The translations under genes and the position numbers were made by a program. The notes beneath the pieces were generated by a model. The model worked only from the letters and a program-made list of their open reading frames with translations. It was not told the origin of the DNA and made no database searches. This document shows, piece after piece, positions 2,078 to 42,584 of a stretch of DNA of 42,805 bases. Position 1 is the first letter of the stretch. The number at the start of each line of letters is the position of its first letter. The DNA comes from Escherichia phage Shy, in sequence record OR996328; one strand, 5' to 3'.

Positions 2078-3625
2078 ATGCCAAACGTATCGTTTATTCG
2101 CCCGGAACTTGCCGCAGTAATGCCGCTGTACAAAAAGATTCGGGATTGTTTGTCCGGTTCGGACAAAGTAAAGGCGGCCGGTGTCGTCTATTTGCCGATG
2201 CCGAACGAAGCCGATAAGTCGCCGGAAAACATCGCCCGTTACAAGGGCTATAAAGGCCGCGCCGTGTTCTACAACGTCGCACGCCGAACGCTGGCCGGTC
2301 TGTCGGGCCAAGTGTTCGCCCGCGACCCCGTGTCGGAAATTCCCGACGCACTGGATATAGTCGAAACCGACGCAACCGGAACCGGCGTATCGGCCGCACA
2401 ACAAGCTAAACGCCTGTTGAATTACGCACTTGGTTATGCGCGTGGCGGTATTTACGTCGATTATCCGAATACCGGCGAAGAAGGCGCAACCAAGAAAGAA
2501 CTAGACGCCGGGCACCTTCGCCCGACGATTACCGTTTGCGACCCGAATACCGTTGTCAACTGGCGTACAATTCAGGTTGGCGCTAAAACCCTGCTGTCGC
2601 TGGTCGTAATCGCCGAATCTTGGCCGTTCTACGACGACGGCTTCGAAATCAAACACGGTTGCCAATTCCGCGTTATGTCGCTGGAATACGAAGCCGACGA
2701 AAACGGTAACGTTGTCGGCGAAACGAAATACAAAGTCGAAATCTACCGGGAAAAGTCGCCGACGGTTTGGAACGGCGATAACATCCCGAAGAACAAATCG
2801 TTCGAACTGAAAGAAGGCCCGTTTTATCCAACCGGCCCGGACGGTTCGAACATCCAAGAAATCCCGTTTATGTTCGTCGGTTCGGAAAACAACGATACGT
2901 CGGTCGATAACCCGCCGTTCATTGACCTTTGCGAACTGAACTTAGCGCATTACCGCAATTCGGCCGATTACGAAGAAGCGTGTTACGTCATGGGCCAGCC
3001 GACTTACTGGTTCAGCGGTCTTACCGAAGAATGGATGAAAAACGTTCTTGGCGGCCAAATCAAGTTGGGTTCGTGGGGCGGCGTCGCACTTCCGCCGAAT
3101 GCGCAAGGCGGCTTGCTGCAAATGCAGCCGAATACCATGCCGTTCGAAGCAATGGGCCACAAAGAAAACCAAATGGTCGCATTGGGCGCAAAGCTGGTCG
3201 AACAAAAGTCGGTACAACGTACCGCAACCGAAGCGCAACAAGACGAAGCCGCCGAATCGTCGTTCTTGGCCGCAACTGCGAAGAACGTATCGGCCGCGTT
3301 CGAATGGGCCTTCGGCTGGTGCGCGTTCTATATGGGTTTGGACGAATCCAAAATCGTATATCAACTTAACACCGACTTCGACTTGATGAAACTTTCGGCC
3401 GCAGACCGCGCCGAAACTATCAAGGAATGGCAAGGCGGCGCACTTACCTTCGCCGAAATGCGGGCCGTACTTCGTAAAGGTGGCGTCGCCACCGAAGACG
3501 ATGCCGAAGCGAAAAAGAAAATCGACCAAGAACAAGCCGACCAAATCGCGGCCGCTGCAAAGGCTATGGGTGAAGACCCGGCCGCCAGCAATCCGCAGCC
3601 GTCTAATGTGGGCAACGGGGGTTAA
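2078..3625 (+). CDS. portal protein
   Basis: 515 aa, between terminase and the Mu-F-like head morphogenesis gene. SD AAAGGGG lies upstream. The C-terminus is acidic and low-complexity, as in many portals. Confidence 0.75.
   Translation: MPNVSFIRPELAAVMPLYKKIRDCLSGSDKVKAAGVVYLPMPNEADKSPENIARYKGYKGRAVFYNVARRTLAGLSGQVFARDPVSEIPDALDIVETDATGTGVSAAQQAKRLLNYALGYARGGIYVDYPNTGEEGATKKELDAGHLRPTITVCDPNTVVNWRTIQVGAKTLLSLVVIAESWPFYDDGFEIKHGCQFRVMSLEYEADENGNVVGETKYKVEIYREKSPTVWNGDNIPKNKSFELKEGPFYPTGPDGSNIQEIPFMFVGSENNDTSVDNPPFIDLCELNLAHYRNSADYEEACYVMGQPTYWFSGLTEEWMKNVLGGQIKLGSWGGVALPPNAQGGLLQMQPNTMPFEAMGHKENQMVALGAKLVEQKSVQRTATEAQQDEAAESSFLAATAKNVSAAFEWAFGWCAFYMGLDESKIVYQLNTDFDLMKLSAADRAETIKEWQGGALTFAEMRAVLRKGGVATEDDAEAKKKIDQEQADQIAAAAKAMGEDPAASNPQPSNVGNGG
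3607..3614 (+). repeat. TGTGGGCA motif copy
   Basis: ctaaTGTGGGCAac, inside the portal CDS (codons aat gtg ggc aac). Confidence 0.9.
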
Positions 3626-3627
3626 TC

Positions 3628-4728
3628 ATGGCACGCGTATTATTGAATCGGAACCCGCCAAACGCGAAACGTTTGTTCGACGTAATCACGCGCCAACAAA
3701 TCTACGTCGAAGGCGTAAAGCTGTCGGAAGCGAACACGTTTCGCAAAGTGGTTCAAGAACTGTCGGACGAATTCCGCCAACTGTTAAGCCGCTTGCAATA
3801 CAGTACGCTTGACGGAATGACCAAGGCGGAACTTAACCGGTTTATCGTGACGCTTCGTAAATCGCAATCGAAGATTTACAACAAGTACACGCAAGACCTG
3901 TTAGACCAACTTTACGCATTCATGCGAACCGATAAGCGCGTATCGCTTCGCGTTTACGGCGCGTTGGTTTCGGATAGCGACGACGTAACGGAAGACGAAG
4001 CCGACGACCTGTTGCAACAGTCGAAAGACGAATCGTTGTTCGTGCCGCTATTCGGTTGGGCGTCGCTTGCGCGGTCGGAAGACGGCGATTCGCGGTTGTG
4101 GTCTACCATCGCGAACAACCCGATTCCGGCTAACGGCCTGTTGCTTGGCGCGTTTATCGCCGGGTTCAGCAAGTCGGCGCAAGCCGCAGTCGAAAACCTG
4201 ATTCGTCAAGGTTGGGCGAATCAATGGACGGTTAACCAGACCATCGCCGCGATTACGGGCAACCGTGGCGCACTCGACCGCATTTACAGCCAGAACACCG
4301 CAGTAACAGCAACCGTTATTCAGCATATCGCCCAAAGCGTCGGGGCCGCCGTGTCGTCGGCCTTTGCGGGGCGGTATCGTTGGGATTCGATAATCGACAA
4401 TGCGACGACCGAAATTTGCCGGGGGCGTAACCAACGTGTTTACGTCTTCGGAAGGGGGCCACTTCCCCCGGCGCATATTCGGTGCCGTTCGCGCATTACG
4501 CCGATTTTCGGAAACGGCCCGACGGATGGTGACGGAAGCGACGAAACGTTTTATACTTGGTCGCGTCGCCAACCTGAAAGTTTCTTGCGCGACGCATTTA
4601 CGAAAGAAGCGGCCGACGCGCTAACCAGCGGTAAGGCACGCGCAAAAGACTTCACCGAATACCGGGCCGAAAAACCCGTATCGGTTGAACAGTACGCCGA
4701 CAAAGTGTCGGATATTTTGAAACGCTAA
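3628..4728 (+). CDS. head morphogenesis protein (Mu gpF / SPP1 gp7-like)
   Basis: 366 aa. It contains TTEICRGRNQRVYVFGRGPLPPAHIRCRSRITP, which matches the Cys...PP.H..CRC signature of the Phage_Mu_F family. It follows the portal gene. Confidence 0.8.
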   Translation: MARVLLNRNPPNAKRLFDVITRQQIYVEGVKLSEANTFRKVVQELSDEFRQLLSRLQYSTLDGMTKAELNRFIVTLRKSQSKIYNKYTQDLLDQLYAFMRTDKRVSLRVYGALVSDSDDVTEDEADDLLQQSKDESLFVPLFGWASLARSEDGDSRLWSTIANNPIPANGLLLGAFIAGFSKSAQAAVENLIRQGWANQWTVNQTIAAITGNRGALDRIYSQNTAVTATVIQHIAQSVGAAVSSAFAGRYRWDSIIDNATTEICRGRNQRVYVFGRGPLPPAHIRCRSRITPIFGNGPTDGDGSDETFYTWSRRQPESFLRDAFTKEAADALTSGKARAKDFTEYRAEKPVSVEQYADKVSDILKR

Positions 4729-4744
4729 CGAAAGGTAAACCGAA

Positions 4745-41476: not shown

Positions 41477-41765
41477 GGTCGAACTTATCGACGATTGGCG
41501 TTTGTTCTGGCGGTTCTGGTCGGTACGACTTGGAATCATCGGAACGGCATTAACTGGCGTACTTGTCGCATTTCCCGATGCGGCGTTGTATGCGTGGAAC
41601 CTGTTACCGTCGGATTTAAAGGCCGCGATTCCCGAACAGTACGTTCCACTTATCGGCGTCGGCGTGTTCGTGCTGTCGCTGGTGGCCCGGTTGATTAAGC
41701 AACAGCGGCCGGAACCGAAAGGAGTAACCGACAATGCAACCGACGGAACTAAAAACCCGAATTGA
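41460..41765 (+). CDS. putative holin (two TM segments)
   Basis: Start moved to the ATG at 41460. WRFWSVRLGIIGTALTGVLVAF and YVPLIGVGVFVLSLVARLI are hydrophobic segments. It lies immediately upstream of the endolysin gene and overlaps it. Confidence 0.55.
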   Translation: MINRVKVELIDDWRLFWRFWSVRLGIIGTALTGVLVAFPDAALYAWNLLPSDLKAAIPEQYVPLIGVGVFVLSLVARLIKQQRPEPKGVTDNATDGTKNPN

Positions 41766-42288
41766 CGCCGTAATGCGGGCGGAAGGTTGGGACAAATACA
41801 CCAACTTACCGAACGACAAGGGCGGCCCTACCAAGTGGGGCATTACCGCAACGACCGCAAAGGCGTTCGGTTATACTGGCGATATCCGCGATATGACTTA
41901 CGACCAAGCCTTCGCAATCTACCGCGAACGCTTTTGGTTGGACCCGAAGTTCGACCAGATTAACGACCGGTCGCCGGTACTGGCCGAAGTGCTGTTCGAT
42001 TGGGGCGTTAATAGCGGGCCAAGCCGCGCCGTTCGCGCAATGCAACGGGCGTTGAATACCCTGAATCGACAGGGCAAGGACTATCCCGATATCGACCCCG
42101 ACGGCGGCTTAGGCCGTATTACCTTCGGCGCACTTGACGGCTTCGCAGCAAAGCGCGGGGGTGCCGGGCTTGCGTATCTGGCCGAAATGGTTAAGGCGCA
42201 ACGGTCGGTGTTCCTTATGGAACTGTCGGAACGTGACCAATCGCAAGAAGACTTTTCGAACGGCTGGCAACAGCGCGTTTTCAAGTAA
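41734..42288 (+). CDS. endolysin, GH108 N-acetylmuramidase with PG_binding_3-like C-terminus
   Basis: 184 aa. AEGWDKYTNLPNDKGGPTKWGIT matches the GH108 signature EGG(Y).....D.GG.T..GIT. SD GGAG upstream. Confidence 0.85.
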   Translation: MQPTELKTRIDAVMRAEGWDKYTNLPNDKGGPTKWGITATTAKAFGYTGDIRDMTYDQAFAIYRERFWLDPKFDQINDRSPVLAEVLFDWGVNSGPSRAVRAMQRALNTLNRQGKDYPDIDPDGGLGRITFGALDGFAAKRGGAGLAYLAEMVKAQRSVFLMELSERDQSQEDFSNGWQQRVFK

Positions 42289-42299
42289 AGGCGGCCGAA

Positions 42300-42584
42300 A
42301 TGATTACAGCACTGTTAGGCGACTTCGGGCCTTGGATTGTGGGCATCATTGGCGCGATTGCTGGTGCGCTTGGCCTGTACTTCGGCGGTAAGAAAGCTGG
42401 TAAGTCGGAAGCGGAAACGAAACACGCCGAAGACAAAGCCACCGAAGCGGTAGCCGAAGCGAAAGCGACGGTCGAACAAGTAACCGAATCAGTTAAAGGG
42501 GCTAACGATGTTCAAGCGGATATTAACCGTCTTAATCCCGGCGATGCTGCTAACAAGTTGCGCGACGAATGGTCGCGGGATTGA
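42300..42584 (+). CDS. i-spanin (Rz-like), short
   Basis: 94 aa. N-terminal TM (WIVGIIGAIAGALGLYFGG) followed by a charged helical periplasmic domain. It embeds the start of the lipoprotein ORF. Confidence 0.6.
   Translation: MITALLGDFGPWIVGIIGAIAGALGLYFGGKKAGKSEAETKHAEDKATEAVAEAKATVEQVTESVKGANDVQADINRLNPGDAANKLRDEWSRD
42338..42345 (+). repeat. TGTGGGCA motif copy
   Basis: ggatTGTGGGCAtc, inside the i-spanin CDS (I-V-G-I). Confidence 0.9.

What the first reader, a model, noticed from the sequence alone, without database searches (positions are those of the whole stretch)
3607..42345. The 12 plus-strand TGTGGGCA copies are quasi-periodic, about one every 3.6 kb around the genome
Treating the genome as a circle, the gaps between consecutive plus-strand copies are 3411, 4481, 3773, 2669, 3449, 3233, 2517, 3890, 4445, 3817, 3046 and 4074 nt. 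The mean is 3567 and the SD about 610, giving a CV of about 0.17; random placement gives a CV near 1.

For 12 random points on a 42805-nt circle, P(smallest gap >= 2517) = (1 - 12*2517/42805)^11, which is roughly 1e-6 by hand calculation. The 8 minus-strand copies are less regular, with gaps of 2028 to 8932 nt.

The spacing ignores gene boundaries and transcription direction, since the copies run through both the plus-strand structural block and the minus-strand replication block. It is therefore a property of one DNA strand of the whole chromosome. Regularly spaced, strand-specific sites are what I would expect for localized single-strand interruptions (nicks are known at sequence-specific sites on one strand in T5 and in some Pseudomonas phages), for lagging-strand priming sites, or for evenly distributed Chi-like protection sites. 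Which of these applies, if any, is inference.
Basis: partly seen in the sequence, partly recalled or inferred. Interest (0 to 1): 0.85.

Follow-up and report, generated by a model that had tools for sequence, protein, structure and literature searches.

The report
Evenly spaced primase start sites
A phage genome carries an 8-base word spaced about every 3.6 kb along each DNA strand, most likely the landing site of the phage's own primase, which would mean the start points of its DNA-copying fragments are written into the genome.

Summary
TGTGGGCA occurs 12 times on the plus strand and 8 times on the minus strand, against 0.7 expected. The plus-strand gaps have a CV of 0.17, which no random placement out of 200,000 reached.

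The window is Escherichia phage Halfdan (Lokivirus). The same word is the most enriched 8-mer in eight relatives that infect alpha-, beta- and gamma-proteobacteria. Each has a quasi-periodic array on each strand, so the reader of the site is phage-encoded and not a host Chi or uptake system. More distant relatives carry TGTGGTCA or TGTGGTTA arrays instead.

The phage primase-helicase (32585-34891) has the primase-polymerase and helix-bundle domains of the phage NrS-1 enzyme. That enzyme's experimentally mapped template sites are TTTGGTTA and GTGG. NrS-1's own origin region contains TGTGGTTA and TGTGGTCA.

Sequence information flanks the motif only on its 5' side, which is where NrS-1 starts its primers. 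The core GTGG is depleted elsewhere in these genomes.

Best reading (about 0.7): these are hard-wired primase recognition sites that fix where lagging-strand fragments start. Nick sites and Chi-like sites are poorly supported. There is no experimental test yet.

The parts
3607..3614 (+). TGTGGGCA site, in the last codons of the portal gene
   Evidence: Conserved at the homologous position in Pavpe01. A site also lies at the 3' end of the portal gene in Kakheti25 (5205) and Samson (5353).
7018..7025 (+). TGTGGGCA site, intergenic, forming part of a strong terminator-like hairpin
   Evidence: MFE -27.2. The corresponding Samson site at 8741 lies inside an annotated terminator.
11499..11506 (+). 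TGTGGGCA site, inside a coding sequence
   Evidence: Conserved in Pavpe01.
15272..15279 (+). TGTGGGCA site in the distal-tail gene; forms a close pair with the minus-strand site at 15428
   Evidence: Pavpe01 lacks the word at the homologous position but has a plus-strand copy at 24533, roughly 50 nt away by my estimate, so the site appears to have moved.
17941..17948 (+). TGTGGGCA site, inside a coding sequence
   Evidence: Conserved in Pavpe01 and IME_AB3.
21390..21397 (+). TGTGGGCA site in the tail fibre gene
   Evidence: Conserved in Pavpe01.
24623..24630 (+). TGTGGGCA site, antisense to the PolB gene
   Evidence: Not conserved in Pavpe01.
27140..27147 (+). TGTGGGCA site, antisense to the SF2 helicase gene
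   Evidence: Not conserved in Pavpe01; a single Pavpe01 site at 35003 replaces this one and 24623.
31030..31037 (+). TGTGGGCA site lying within a GC-rich hairpin
   Evidence: MFE -22.6. Conserved in Pavpe01.
35475..35482 (+). TGTGGGCA site, intergenic, between a TAA stop codon and the next ribosome-binding site
39292..39299 (+). TGTGGGCA site in the dCMP deaminase gene; forms a pair with the minus-strand site at 39964
42338..42345 (+). TGTGGGCA site, inside a coding sequence
   Evidence: Conserved in Pavpe01.
1923..1930 (-). TGTGGGCA site on the minus strand, in the large terminase gene
   Evidence: Conserved in Pavpe01 and IME_AB3.
9351..9358 (-). TGTGGGCA site on the minus strand, in the tail tube gene
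   Evidence: Conserved in Pavpe01.
15428..15435 (-). TGTGGGCA site on the minus strand
   Evidence: Conserved in Pavpe01 and IME_AB3.
19070..19077 (-). TGTGGGCA site on the minus strand
   Evidence: Not conserved in Pavpe01.
23442..23449 (-). TGTGGGCA site on the minus strand, sense to the PolB gene
   Evidence: Not conserved in Pavpe01.
32374..32381 (-). TGTGGGCA site on the minus strand, at the start of the small ORF just upstream of the primase gene
   Evidence: Conserved in Pavpe01. Kakheti25 (33115), Samson (33557) and RcMotherGoose (32336) also have a minus-strand copy just upstream of their primase genes.
34402..34409 (-). TGTGGGCA site on the minus strand, inside the primase gene
   Evidence: Conserved in Pavpe01.
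39964..39971 (-). TGTGGGCA site on the minus strand, filling the spacer between a GGAG ribosome-binding site and an ATG
   Evidence: Conserved in Pavpe01.
5128..5135 (-). Near-cognate site TGTGGGGA with an AA 5' flank; falls in the middle of the 7.4-kb minus-strand gap
   Evidence: (2 copies of this variant against 0.28 expected).
25636..25643 (-). Near-cognate site TGTGGGGA with an AA 5' flank; falls in the 8.9-kb minus-strand gap
28607..28614 (-). Near-cognate site TGTGGGAA; falls in the 8.9-kb minus-strand gap
   Evidence: Weaker evidence: this variant is not enriched on its own.
12847..12854 (-). Near-cognate site TGTGGGCG
   Evidence: Weak evidence.
33662..33669 (+). Near-cognate site TGTGGGCG
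   Evidence: Weak evidence.
32585..34891 (+). Primase-helicase (768 aa): an AEP primase-polymerase domain, an NrS-1-type helix-bundle domain (HBD) and a DUF3987 helicase. This is the proposed reader of the motif.
   Evidence: PHROG 3022, DNA primase. Pfam NrS1-1_pol-like_HBD at residues 220-272 plus DUF3987. phmmer against PDB matches NrS-1 N300 chains 6a9w, 6k9a and 7rr3 at E ~ 2e-27 over residues 10-274.
22747..25901 (-). PolB DNA polymerase (22747-24882) and sliding clamp (24882-25901), which would extend the primers
   Evidence: PHROG 1252 and PHROG 947. Homologues are present in all array-bearing relatives.
26345..32221 (-). Remainder of the replication and recombination module: SF2 helicase, Cas4-type exonuclease, DUF3268 zinc finger, DUF669 SSB, AAA_24 Sak4-like ATPase, DUF7173 and MazG
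   Evidence: NrS-1 carries the same gene set (MazG, helicase, RecB-type nuclease, SSB) encoded on the strand opposite its primase gene, as here.

Best explanation
TGTGGGCA is the template-strand recognition site of the phage's own NrS-1-type primase-helicase, encoded at 32585-34891. Its functional core is TGTGGG, and the preferred 5' context is T-A-W preceded by a GC-rich, A-poor stretch.

Proposed mechanism. When a strand is exposed as single-stranded DNA at a fork, the helix-bundle domain binds the word. The AEP catalytic domain starts a primer opposite the first bases 5' of the word and copies toward the template's 5' end. The phage PolB and clamp then extend the primer.

Why the spacing is even. 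The full site is 8-10 nt long and almost never arises by chance, and the minimal core GTGG is depleted elsewhere. Priming is therefore confined to designated sites. Each strand needs its own set of sites that leaves no long unprimed stretch. Selection keeps a site only where a gap would otherwise be too long, and redundant neighbouring copies decay. The result is a quasi-periodic array on each strand: 12-13 sites on the plus strand (mean gap 3.3-3.6 kb) and 8-12 on the minus strand.

Why the plus strand is denser. The plus strand, which is the sense strand of the structural genes, would be the lagging-strand template for forks that travel in the direction of late transcription, for example during rolling-circle replication. 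That would explain why its array is denser and more regular.

Shown: enrichment; spacing; conservation and turnover of sites; homology of the primase to NrS-1; similarity of the motif to the NrS-1 recognition sites; one-sided flank information; depletion of GTGG.

Inferred: binding of the site by the helix-bundle domain; primer start positions; the Okazaki-fragment role; fork direction.
For: (1) Host independence. TGTGGGCA is the most or nearly the most enriched 8-mer under a 4th-order Markov model, with 14-24 copies, in Halfdan, Pavpe01, IME_AB3, Kakheti25, Samson, Kharn, RcMotherGoose and VCLv11. Their hosts are E. coli or Pseudomonas, Acinetobacter, Xanthomonas, Sphingomonas, Rhodobacter and Variovorax. 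It also dominates in most of 60 IMG/VR contigs with GC content from 35% to 58% that encode a primase 44-57% identical.

(2) Spacing recurs. Using the core TGTGGG, plus-strand arrays have CV 0.21-0.38 with P <= 1e-5 in all eight genomes. The variant-motif arrays in WildeMaa and GH32 lack short gaps (smallest-gap P = 5e-5 and 2e-5).

(3) Selection acts on the sites themselves. Of 17 Halfdan sites that can be aligned to Pavpe01 (77% identical), 12 are intact at the homologous position. By my own estimate an 8-mer survives that divergence by chance with probability about 0.12 (0.77^8). The remaining sites have relocated while the spacing is kept.

(4) Reader candidate. The primase has the Pfam NrS-1 helix-bundle domain (HBD) and matches the NrS-1 N300 crystal-structure chains at E ~ 2e-27.

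(5) Biochemical precedent. The NrS-1 enzyme needs an 8-nt template recognition sequence (PMC7102993). That sequence was mapped as 5'-TTTGGTTA-3', generalised to NTTGRYYA, and additionally 5'-GTGG/GTGA-3'. It is bound by the HBD, and synthesis starts at the first base 5' of the site (PMC10250227; PMC8718748). The enriched words here are TGTGGTTA (Seuratvirus, Iggyvirus), TGTGGTCA (Vibrio phage GH32, BUCT626) and TGTGGGCA. All contain GTGG, and TGTGGTTA differs from TTTGGTTA by a single base.

(6) In NrS-1 itself, the 390 bp immediately after its primase gene contain TTTGGTTA, TGTGGTTA (twice), TGTGGTCA and TTTGGTCA.

(7) Flank information sits only on the 5' side. Across 145 sites, position -2 is A in 111, position -1 is A or T in 132, and positions -10 to -5 are A-poor. 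The 3' side carries almost no information. This is what a process that starts just 5' of the site and moves away from it would produce.

(8) GTGG is 2-6 times below its dinucleotide-based expectation in the 43-kb group. In RcMotherGoose, 32 of the 43 GTGG copies lie inside TGTGGG. GTG/CAC is among the two or three most depleted trinucleotides once dinucleotide content is allowed for.

(9) The two strands carry separate arrays. Opposite-strand sites can be 41-156 bp apart, whereas same-strand sites are never closer than 2.5 kb in the window.

(10) In all eight genomes of the Halfdan group the structural-gene sense strand carries more sites: 92 against 53 in total (my sum).
Against: There is no experimental evidence for any phage in this group.

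Helix-bundle-domain (HBD) similarity does not track the motif variant. The IME_AB3 HBD is only 26-33% identical to the others yet uses the same word. The WildeMaa HBD is 45-49% identical to them yet uses TGTGGTTA.

Motif divergence correlates with primase divergence (rho 0.76-0.82), but equally well with clamp, SF2 helicase and portal divergence. The phyletic pattern therefore cannot single out the primase.

Phages with more distantly related AEP primases (LP-101, Psp6, KpV79) have no such array.

Later work found NrS-1 specificity to be relaxed, with GTG sufficient in vitro. Strict 8-10-nt specificity in the Halfdan enzyme is therefore an assumption.

A pure lagging-strand model does not predict the observed phase coupling between the two strand arrays.

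A VRR-NUC nuclease is detected in exactly the TGTGGGCA-using group, so a nuclease reader cannot be excluded.
Confidence: 0.7

Rival explanations
1. The sites are sequence-specific single-strand interruptions (nicks) in virion DNA, as in T5 or the Pseudomonas phages tf and PaP3. A phage nuclease such as the VRR-NUC protein at 36948-37607 would make them.
For: The sites are strand-specific, dispersed and evenly spaced, and same-strand copies are never close together. A VRR-NUC nuclease is detected in all TGTGGGCA-type genomes and not in the variant-motif genomes. The Halfdan group has no annotated ligase, whereas WildeMaa and BUCT626 do. Fixed Okazaki junctions could therefore persist as nicks, which would be a hybrid of this model and the primase model.
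Against: The sites are on both strands, some only 41-156 bp apart. From my own knowledge, T5 nicks are on one strand only. Also from memory, the motif is unrelated to the known nick consensus sequences. VRR-NUC enzymes are structure-specific resolvases, not known site-specific nickases (general knowledge). No paper in the held library links this phage group to nicks. This model does not explain why the word matches the recognition sequence of the homologous NrS-1 primase, nor why GTGG is depleted.
Confidence: 0.1
2. The word is a Chi-like or recombination-hotspot signal read on single-stranded DNA by the phage's own helicase-nuclease pair (SF2 helicase 26345-27988 and Cas4-type exonuclease 27989-28960). 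It would protect or direct processing of phage DNA ends.
For: It is an 8-nt, asymmetric, over-represented word whose density, about one per 2-4 kb, is similar to Chi in E. coli (my recollection). The helicase is found in every array-bearing genome and the exonuclease in all but one (phiAxp-1). Motif divergence correlates with SF2 helicase divergence as well as it does with primase divergence.
Against: Host Chi is excluded. The same word occurs across hosts from three proteobacterial classes, and E. coli Chi occurs twice against 0.8 expected. I know of no Cas4-family or SF2 phage nuclease that recognises a Chi-like word. Chi sites are not known to be evenly spaced or to exclude close same-strand neighbours. 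This model does not explain the match to NrS-1 primase sites, or the information confined to the 5' flank.
Confidence: 0.07
3. The word is a double-stranded DNA binding site for a small phage DNA-binding protein, such as the 70-aa ORF at 32373-32585 coupled to the primase gene, or for the primase-helicase acting as an initiator. The genome would then carry many dispersed origins or an architectural array, not lagging-strand start sites.
For: In most relatives where the region is annotated, a small gene sits directly upstream of the primase gene. In NrS-1 the sites cluster as a presumed origin. The two strand arrays are phase-coupled, and close opposite-strand pairs have a preferred arrangement, which a fork-only model does not predict.
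Against: The regularity holds within each strand but not for the merged set (CV 0.17 and 0.38 for the two strands separately, 0.47 combined). That points to a strand-specific reading. The small upstream gene is not one conserved family: no homologue was detected in Kakheti25, VCLv11 or IME_AB3, and Pfam finds nothing convincing. In the Rhodobacter relatives it is interchangeable between two versions (PMC8601537) while the motif stays the same.
Confidence: 0.1
4. The pattern has no function and is a by-product of codon usage, mutation bias or shared ancestry of a few positions.
For: Several other 8-mers reach about 20 copies when judged only against base composition. Many site positions are shared between close relatives.
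Against: Under a 4th-order Markov model it is the top word in most of the genomes tested. It occurs in all reading frames, on sense and antisense strands and in spacers. Its CV is the lowest of all comparable words in the window. Arrays with different words and different positions show the same spacing in distant lineages.
Confidence: 0.01

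Closest known systems
Template recognition sequence of the phage NrS-1 primase-polymerase (5'-TTTGGTTA-3', generalised to NTTGRYYA, and 5'-GTGG/GTGA-3'; bound by the helix-bundle domain)
   Same: The enzyme is homologous: AEP domain, helix-bundle domain and hexameric helicase. The site length is the same, 8 nt, and the sequences nearly coincide: TGTGGTTA, TGTGGTCA and TGTGGGCA all contain GTGG. Flank information lies on the 5' side, where NrS-1 starts synthesis. The surrounding module of MazG, helicase, RecB-type nuclease and SSB is shared.
   Different: NrS-1 has a handful of sites clustered just after its primase gene, as a presumed origin. Its enzyme is also the replicative polymerase. 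Here there are 20-25 sites spread quasi-periodically over both strands, and a separate PolB and clamp are encoded. GTGG is depleted outside the sites. No biochemistry exists for the Halfdan enzyme.
Trinucleotide primase recognition sites of T7 (5'-GTC-3'), T4 (GTT/GCT) and E. coli DnaG (CTG)
   Same: They are template-strand words that decide where lagging-strand primers start. This description is from my own general knowledge.
   Different: Those words are 3 nt long and occur hundreds of times, so Okazaki starts are chosen stochastically among many sites. Here the word is 8-10 nt, occurs about 12 times per strand and is evenly spaced, which would make fragment boundaries essentially fixed. 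The enzymes also belong to a different family (DnaG/TOPRIM, as opposed to AEP).
pRN1 ORF904 primase-polymerase (5'-GTG-3' recognised by its helix-bundle domain)
   Same: It has an AEP domain, a helix-bundle domain and a helicase. The GTG it recognises lies within the conserved core TGTGG. Priming starts outside the motif (PMC8718748).
   Different: It comes from an archaeal plasmid and needs only a 3-nt motif. No dispersed array has been described for it.
Localized single-strand interruptions of T5 and of Pseudomonas phages tf, PaP3 and LUZ24
   Same: They are dispersed, sequence-defined, strand-specific sites in a phage genome.
   Different: Those are physical nicks with different consensus sequences (from memory). 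In T5 they are on one strand only. Nothing here shows nicks, and the sites lie on both strands.
Chi sites (E. coli GCTGGTGG and equivalents in other hosts)
   Same: They are 8-nt, asymmetric, over-represented words read on one strand.
   Different: Chi is specific to the host's RecBCD or AddAB. This word is specific to the phage lineage and independent of host. Chi is not evenly spaced.
Single-strand initiation signals (RSF1010 ssiA/ssiB for RepB'; the phage G4 origin)
   Same: They are specific single-stranded DNA signals that recruit a primase.
   Different: Those are hairpin structures about 40 nt long, present once per strand. The sites here show no association with secondary structure and occur 12 or more times per strand.

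Membership tests
NrS-1-type primase recognition site | The genome encodes an AEP primase-polymerase with a helix-bundle domain homologous to that of NrS-1. | tested here: met
   Pfam PF22763 (NrS1-1_pol-like_HBD) at residues 220-272 plus the DUF3987 helicase. phmmer matches NrS-1 N300 chains 6a9w, 6k9a and 7rr3 at E ~ 2e-27 over residues 10-274.
NrS-1-type primase recognition site | The site is an 8-nt template word resembling 5'-NTTGRYYA-3' or containing 5'-GTGG-3'. | tested here: met
   TGTGGGCA contains GTGG and matches NTTGRYYA at 5 of its 7 specified positions. The sister-lineage words TGTGGTTA and TGTGGTCA match at 6 of 7. The same words occur in the NrS-1 origin region.
NrS-1-type primase recognition site | Primer synthesis starts at the first to fourth base 5' of the site on the template. 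| not testable with these tools
   There is only an indirect hint: sequence information lies on the 5' flank only (A at -2 in 111 of 145 sites, A or T at -1, GC-rich from -10 to -5).
NrS-1-type primase recognition site | The helix-bundle domain binds the site, and motif specificity follows that domain. | tested here: inconclusive
   Helix-bundle-domain identity does not track the motif variant. The correlation between motif divergence and protein divergence is similar for the primase, the clamp, the helicase and the portal protein.
T5- or tf-type localized nicks | Physical single-strand breaks are present at the sites in virion DNA. | not testable with these tools
   No sequencing-read or gel data are available. 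No report of nicks was found for this phage group.
T5- or tf-type localized nicks | The sites are confined to one strand (as in T5) and share a known nick consensus. | tested here: not met
   There are 12 plus-strand and 8 minus-strand copies. The word is unrelated to the nick consensus sequences I recall from the literature.
Chi (host RecBCD or AddAB) | The word is specific to the host's recombination machinery, so it differs between host groups. | tested here: not met
   The identical word is found in phages of Escherichia or Pseudomonas, Acinetobacter, Xanthomonas, Sphingomonas, Rhodobacter and Variovorax. E. coli Chi occurs twice against 0.8 expected.
DNA uptake sequences or host-derived dispersed repeats | The word is inherited from, or matched to, one host genus. 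| tested here: not met
   Host independence as shown. The word also occurs in IMG/VR contigs with GC content from 35% to 58%.
Origin iterons | Copies are clustered in one non-coding region. | tested here: not met
   The copies are dispersed with a smallest same-strand gap of 2517 nt. A different repeat, TATAAGG, is the one that clusters, at 34913-35152.
Structured single-strand initiation signals (ssi, G4-type) | A stable hairpin presents the signal. | tested here: not met
   The mean folding energy of 60-nt windows around the sites does not differ from controls in Halfdan (-15.4 against -14.4). Only 2 of the 20 sites lie in strong hairpins.

The most novel reading that the evidence does not exclude
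A large clade of phages carries a genome-encoded priming code. The clade includes Lokivirus, Septimatrevirus and Titanvirus relatives and, with variant words, Queuovirinae, Iggyvirus and Bixiavirus. An 8-10-nt primase word would be placed quasi-periodically on each strand and purged elsewhere, so that every Okazaki fragment has a fixed, heritable start site. The phase-coupled pairs of opposite-strand sites might additionally act as dispersed initiation zones. If ligation is incomplete, the same sites could appear as fixed nicks in packaged DNA.
Probability: 0.45. Interest if true: 0.85.

Novelty: new variant of a known kind. Interest (0 to 1): 0.74.

Why it matters
In the textbook systems, primases choose among hundreds of 3-nt sites, so Okazaki fragment boundaries are stochastic. 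If this reading is right, a widespread group of phages instead fixes the boundaries in the sequence. About a dozen long, evenly spaced primase sites per strand would set them, and the minimal core is removed everywhere else.

That would provide three things:
- a natural system in which lagging-strand start sites are known in advance and can be edited;
- a physiological role for the unusual 8-nt specificity of NrS-1-type primase-polymerases, known so far from one deep-sea phage with a single site cluster;
- a simple genomic signature (top 8-mer, low gap CV) for predicting primase specificity and the main fork direction from sequence alone.

It also shows that selection for coverage can make a motif quasi-periodic.

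Tried and rejected
(1) Host Chi or uptake sequence. Rejected: the word is the same across hosts of three proteobacterial classes, and E. coli Chi is not enriched.

(2) Structured single-strand initiation signals. Rejected: folding energies around the sites equal those of controls.

(3) Degenerate copies filling the gaps. One-mismatch variants as a class are not enriched (15 found, about as many as expected). The only exception is TGTGGGGA on the minus strand.

Motif divergence was compared with the divergence of nine proteins. It correlates with the primase but equally with the clamp, the helicase and the portal protein, and only PolB and TerL are clearly worse. The test is inconclusive because of shared phylogeny.

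(5) Helix-bundle-domain identity against motif variant. No clean relationship.

(6) Literature searches for the word, for nicks in Kakheti25-like phages, for evenly spaced primase sites, and for TGTGGTTA, TTTGGTTA or GTGG with primase. Nothing was found beyond the NrS-1 papers.

(7) Rfam scan of the window. No family matched.

(8) Origin-like reading of the preferred pair arrangement (plus-strand site on the left, minus-strand site on the right). Not supported by the model system, because the NrS-1 cluster has the opposite arrangement. The coupling is left unexplained.

(9) GC skew as a guide to fork direction. It simply follows the direction of transcription.

(10) Pfam scan of the small ORF upstream of the primase gene and of several early ORFs. 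Nothing convincing.

Full report
**1. Observation**

Dinucleotide-preserving shuffles give 0.69 copies on average, with a maximum of 3.

The circular plus-strand gaps run from 2517 to 4481 nt, with CV 0.17. None of 200,000 random placements of 12 points reached so low a CV, so large a smallest gap or so small a largest gap.

As an empirical null that keeps the real gene structure, I computed the gap CV for every 6-, 7- and 8-mer with 8-16 copies per strand. TGTGGGCA(+) has the lowest CV (0.17) among 8-mers, whose median is 0.89. Its 6- and 7-mer cores head their own lists.

The minus-strand copies are also more even than chance (CV 0.38, P = 0.007).

**2. What the window is**

The window is 99% identical to Escherichia phage Halfdan (MH362766, Lokivirus) and is the reverse complement of that record. 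The layout is:
- structural genes on the plus strand, 1-22653;
- a replication block on the minus strand, 22747-32221, holding PolB, clamp, SF2 helicase, Cas4-type exonuclease, DUF3268, DUF669 SSB, Sak4-like ATPase, DUF7173 and MazG;
- a primase-helicase at 32585-34891 and small early genes on the plus strand.

Related Rhodobacter phages are circularly permuted headful packagers (PMC8601537), so treating the genome as a circle is reasonable.

**3. The word belongs to the phage lineage, not the host**

Under a 4th-order Markov expectation, TGTGGGCA is the top or near-top enriched 8-mer in eight genomes: Halfdan, Pseudomonas phage Pavpe01, Acinetobacter phage IME_AB3, Pseudomonas phage Kakheti25, Xanthomonas phage Samson, Sphingomonas phage Kharn, Rhodobacter phage RcMotherGoose and Variovorax phage VCLv11. 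Each has 14-24 copies. Their PolB proteins are only 43-78% identical to Halfdan's.

The word also dominates in most of 60 metagenomic viral contigs with GC content from 35% to 58% that encode a primase 44-57% identical.

A host Chi site, an uptake sequence or a host-derived repeat cannot explain this. E. coli Chi itself occurs twice against 0.8 expected.

**4. The spacing recurs**

With the exact 8-mer, the strand that is sense for the structural genes is quasi-periodic in:
- Pavpe01 (CV 0.20, P = 5e-6);
- Kharn (CV 0.27, P = 2e-5);
- IME_AB3 (CV 0.38, P = 7.5e-5).

It is weakly so in Kakheti25, Samson and VCLv11. In those last genomes the eighth base is degenerate (A or T).

With the core TGTGGG the arrays become very regular:

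| Genome and strand | Sites | CV |
|---|---|---|
| Kakheti25 + | 20 | 0.21 |
| RcMotherGoose + | 20 | 0.24 |
| VCLv11 + | 18 | 0.21 |
| Kharn + | 16 | 0.29 |
| Halfdan + | 13 | 0.22 |
| Halfdan - | 12 | 0.28 |

All have P <= 2.5e-5.

In the window, one-mismatch variants are not enriched as a class. The exception is TGTGGGGA, with 2 copies against 0.28 expected. Both copies have the AA flank, and each falls in one of the two largest minus-strand gaps.

**5. Selection acts on the sites and on their spacing**

Of 17 Halfdan sites that can be aligned to Pavpe01 (77% DNA identity), 12 are intact at the homologous position. By my own estimate the chance survival of an 8-mer at that divergence is about 0.12 (0.77^8).

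The others have turned over. The site at 15272 appears in Pavpe01 as a copy roughly 50 nt away (my estimate). Sites 24623 and 27140 are replaced by a single site between them.

Sites lie in coding sequence in several frames, sense and antisense, and in short spacers between genes. They show no association with hairpins.

**6. Sister lineages use sister words**

Phages with more distant homologues of the same replication module have a variant word as their top 8-mer:
- phiAxp-1: TGTGGGC[A/G];
- Vibrio phage GH32 and Stenotrophomonas phage BUCT626: TGTGGTCA (22 and 33 copies per 50 kb);
- Escherichia phage WildeMaa (Seuratvirus) and Pseudomonas phage Pa-oumiga (Iggyvirus): TGTGGTTA (39 copies each per 50 kb).

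Their same-strand copies again avoid each other. The smallest-gap P is 2e-5 in GH32 and 5e-5 in WildeMaa.

Phages that share only a distant N-terminal AEP similarity (Listeria phage LP-101, Pseudomonas phage Psp6, Klebsiella phage KpV79) have no such array.

**7. Who reads it**

The primase-helicase at 32585-34891 carries the Pfam NrS-1 polymerase helix-bundle domain (HBD) and a DUF3987 helicase. It matches the crystal-structure chains of the NrS-1 N-terminal fragment at E ~ 2e-27 over residues 10-274.

The following has been shown experimentally for the NrS-1 enzyme:
- primer synthesis depends on an 8-nt recognition sequence in the template (PMC7102993);
- that sequence is 5'-TTTGGTTA-3', generalised to 5'-NTTGRYYA-3' (PMC10250227);
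- 5'-GTGG-3' and 5'-GTGA-3' are a second, more efficient site;
- the HBD is the site-binding module;
- synthesis starts at the first base 5' of the site and can slip to the fourth (PMC8718748).

The words enriched here all contain GTGG, and TGTGGTTA differs from TTTGGTTA by one base.

I then looked at the NrS-1 genome itself. The 390 bp immediately after its primase gene contain TTTGGTTA, TGTGGTTA (twice), TGTGGTCA and TTTGGTCA. The very words that form arrays in Queuovirinae, Iggyvirus and Bixiavirus are therefore the natural sites of the model enzyme. NrS-1 also shares the surrounding module of MazG, helicase, RecB-type nuclease and SSB, encoded on the strand opposite the primase gene.

**8. 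Two further features fit a primase site**

First, sequence information flanks the word only on its 5' side. Across 145 sites from eight genomes:
- position -2 is A in 111;
- position -1 is A or T in 132;
- positions -3 and -4 lean toward T;
- positions -10 to -5 are A-poor and GC-rich;
- the 3' side is nearly uninformative.

A process that starts just 5' of the word and copies away from it would produce this. A GC-rich first stretch would also stabilise a short primer, though that point is inference.

Second, the minimal core is depleted outside the sites. GTGG is 2-6 times below its dinucleotide-based expectation in the 43-kb group. In RcMotherGoose, 32 of the 43 GTGG copies lie inside TGTGGG. 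GTG/CAC is among the two or three most depleted trinucleotides once dinucleotide content is allowed for.

**9. Model**

Priming is confined to a long, rare word, so each strand needs its own set of sites with no long gap. Selection maintains a site only where it is needed. Redundant neighbours decay, and new copies almost never arise by chance (about 0.35 expected per strand). This gives a quasi-periodic array without any ruler.

The two strands behave as separate arrays. Opposite-strand sites can be 41-156 bp apart, and the merged set is much less regular (CV 0.47).

In all eight genomes of the Halfdan group the structural-gene sense strand carries more sites, 92 against 53 in total (my sum). 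That strand is the lagging-strand template for forks moving in the direction of late transcription, as would be expected for rolling-circle replication co-directional with late genes. This step is inference.

**10. What does not fit or could not be settled**

- HBD identity does not track the word variant.
- The correlation between motif divergence and protein divergence is as high for the clamp, SF2 helicase and portal protein as for the primase. Comparative data therefore cannot single out the primase. The argument rests on the biochemical precedent.
- NrS-1 specificity has been reported as relaxed in vitro.
- A VRR-NUC nuclease is detected only in the TGTGGGCA group.
- The two arrays are phase-coupled. 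Only 8 of 63 minus-strand core sites fall in the last 35% of a plus-strand interval, against 22 expected (0 of 20,000 random rotations gave so few). The 35% threshold was chosen after seeing the data.
- Close opposite-strand pairs are mostly arranged with the plus-strand site on the left and the minus-strand site on the right: 21 against 6 with the exact 8-mer. The NrS-1 cluster has the opposite arrangement. I leave this coupling unexplained.

**11. Rival explanations**

- Nick sites (about 0.1). They lack any positive evidence and do not explain the match to primase sites. A hybrid remains possible, in which fixed Okazaki junctions persist as nicks in phages with no annotated ligase.
- A Chi-like signal for the phage's own helicase-nuclease pair (about 0.07). 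It has no precedent.
- A double-stranded binding site or multi-origin model (about 0.1). The per-strand regularity disfavours it, although the phase coupling keeps it alive.
- Chance or compositional bias. Excluded.

**12. Novelty**

No paper in the held library describes this word, its variants, or any evenly spaced array of primase sites.

Sequence-specific primase sites, and the 8-nt NrS-1 site in particular, are known. What is new is the dispersed quasi-periodic array on each strand, the depletion of the core elsewhere, and the spread of the pattern across a large phage clade. I rate it a new variant of a known kind, with interest about 0.74.

Noticed in passing
window 1-42805 (whole genome); also L002, L004-L008: The trinucleotide GAG/CTC is almost absent on both strands. 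The plus strand has 20 GAG and 45 CTC, against about 735 and 693 expected from base composition. All 4-mers containing GAG or CTC have observed/expected ratios of 0.00-0.03. The same holds in relatives from other host genera: RcMotherGoose has 1 GAG and 2 CTC, Kakheti25 18 and 8, Kharn 20 and 11. The avoidance is weaker in IME_AB3 and phiAxp-1, at most mild in WildeMaa, Pa-oumiga and BUCT626 (observed/expected 0.5-0.6), and absent from GH32. It is lineage-specific and host-independent, so it looks like selection at the DNA level, possibly against a nuclease or nickase. The VRR-NUC gene is detected in this same group.
   Followed up: partly
window, whole genome: GATC has an observed/expected ratio of 0.00 in the window, and likewise in Kakheti25, VCLv11 and Kharn. 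GTAC is absent from Kharn and RcMotherGoose, and GGCC and CCGG are absent from IME_AB3. This looks like classic restriction-site avoidance layered on top of the GAG/CTC avoidance.
   Followed up: no
window 34892-35192: This is a 300-bp non-coding region immediately downstream of the primase gene. It holds 6 of the window's 8 copies of TATAAGG (5 direct, 1 inverted) and an AT-rich stretch at about 35040-35110. It is a candidate replication origin or early regulatory region. In NrS-1 the equivalent position holds the cluster of primase sites.
   Followed up: partly
window, both strands; L003, L004, L006, L007, L009: The plus- and minus-strand arrays are phase-coupled. Minus-strand core sites avoid the last ~35% of each plus-strand interval: 0 of 12 in Halfdan and 8 of 63 pooled over six genomes, against 22 expected. 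Close opposite-strand pairs are mostly arranged with the plus-strand site on the left and the minus-strand site on the right. This is unexplained, and the threshold was chosen after seeing the data.
   Followed up: partly
window 39957-39975 and 35472-35498: Some sites double as translation-initiation spacers. At 39964 the reverse complement of the word fills the 8 nt between a GGAG ribosome-binding site and an ATG. At 35475 the word sits between a TAA stop codon and a GGGGG ribosome-binding site. Half of the few remaining plus-strand GAGs lie in the early region 35263-41722, and at least one (39961) is part of a GGAG ribosome-binding site.
   Followed up: no
window 7000-7045 and 31015-31050: Two sites overlap strong GC-rich hairpins that look like intrinsic terminators, after the gene at 6494-6991 and near the ends of the genes at 30320-31084 and 31053-31520. 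The Samson site corresponding to the first lies inside an annotated terminator.
   Followed up: partly
whole window, compared with records MH362766 and PP954860: The phage is deposited as an E. coli MG1655 phage. A 99.4%-identical 'Juelich variant' lists Pseudomonas taiwanensis as host. The next-best DNA match in the collection, Pavpe01 (77% identical), infects Pseudomonas, and most of the weaker matches are also Pseudomonas phages, with Xanthomonas, Acinetobacter and Stenotrophomonas phages among them. The true host range looks uncertain.
   Followed up: no
L003 (IME_AB3) compared with the window: In IME_AB3 the primase gene and the replication block are on the same strand, opposite to the structural genes. 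In Halfdan the primase gene is encoded on the opposite strand to the replication block. Despite this rearrangement, and a primase only 35-37% identical, the word is the same and the strand bias toward the structural-gene sense strand is kept.
   Followed up: partly
L097 (NrS-1) 17190-17590: The presumed origin of NrS-1 is built from repeats of AAAGTGT(A/G)AC(C/T)/GGTTACACTTT-type units. These carry TGTGGTTA, TGTGGTCA and TTTGGTTA on both strands and flank an AT-rich stretch. The published 8-nt site appears to be one member of a small family of sites in that region.
   Followed up: partly
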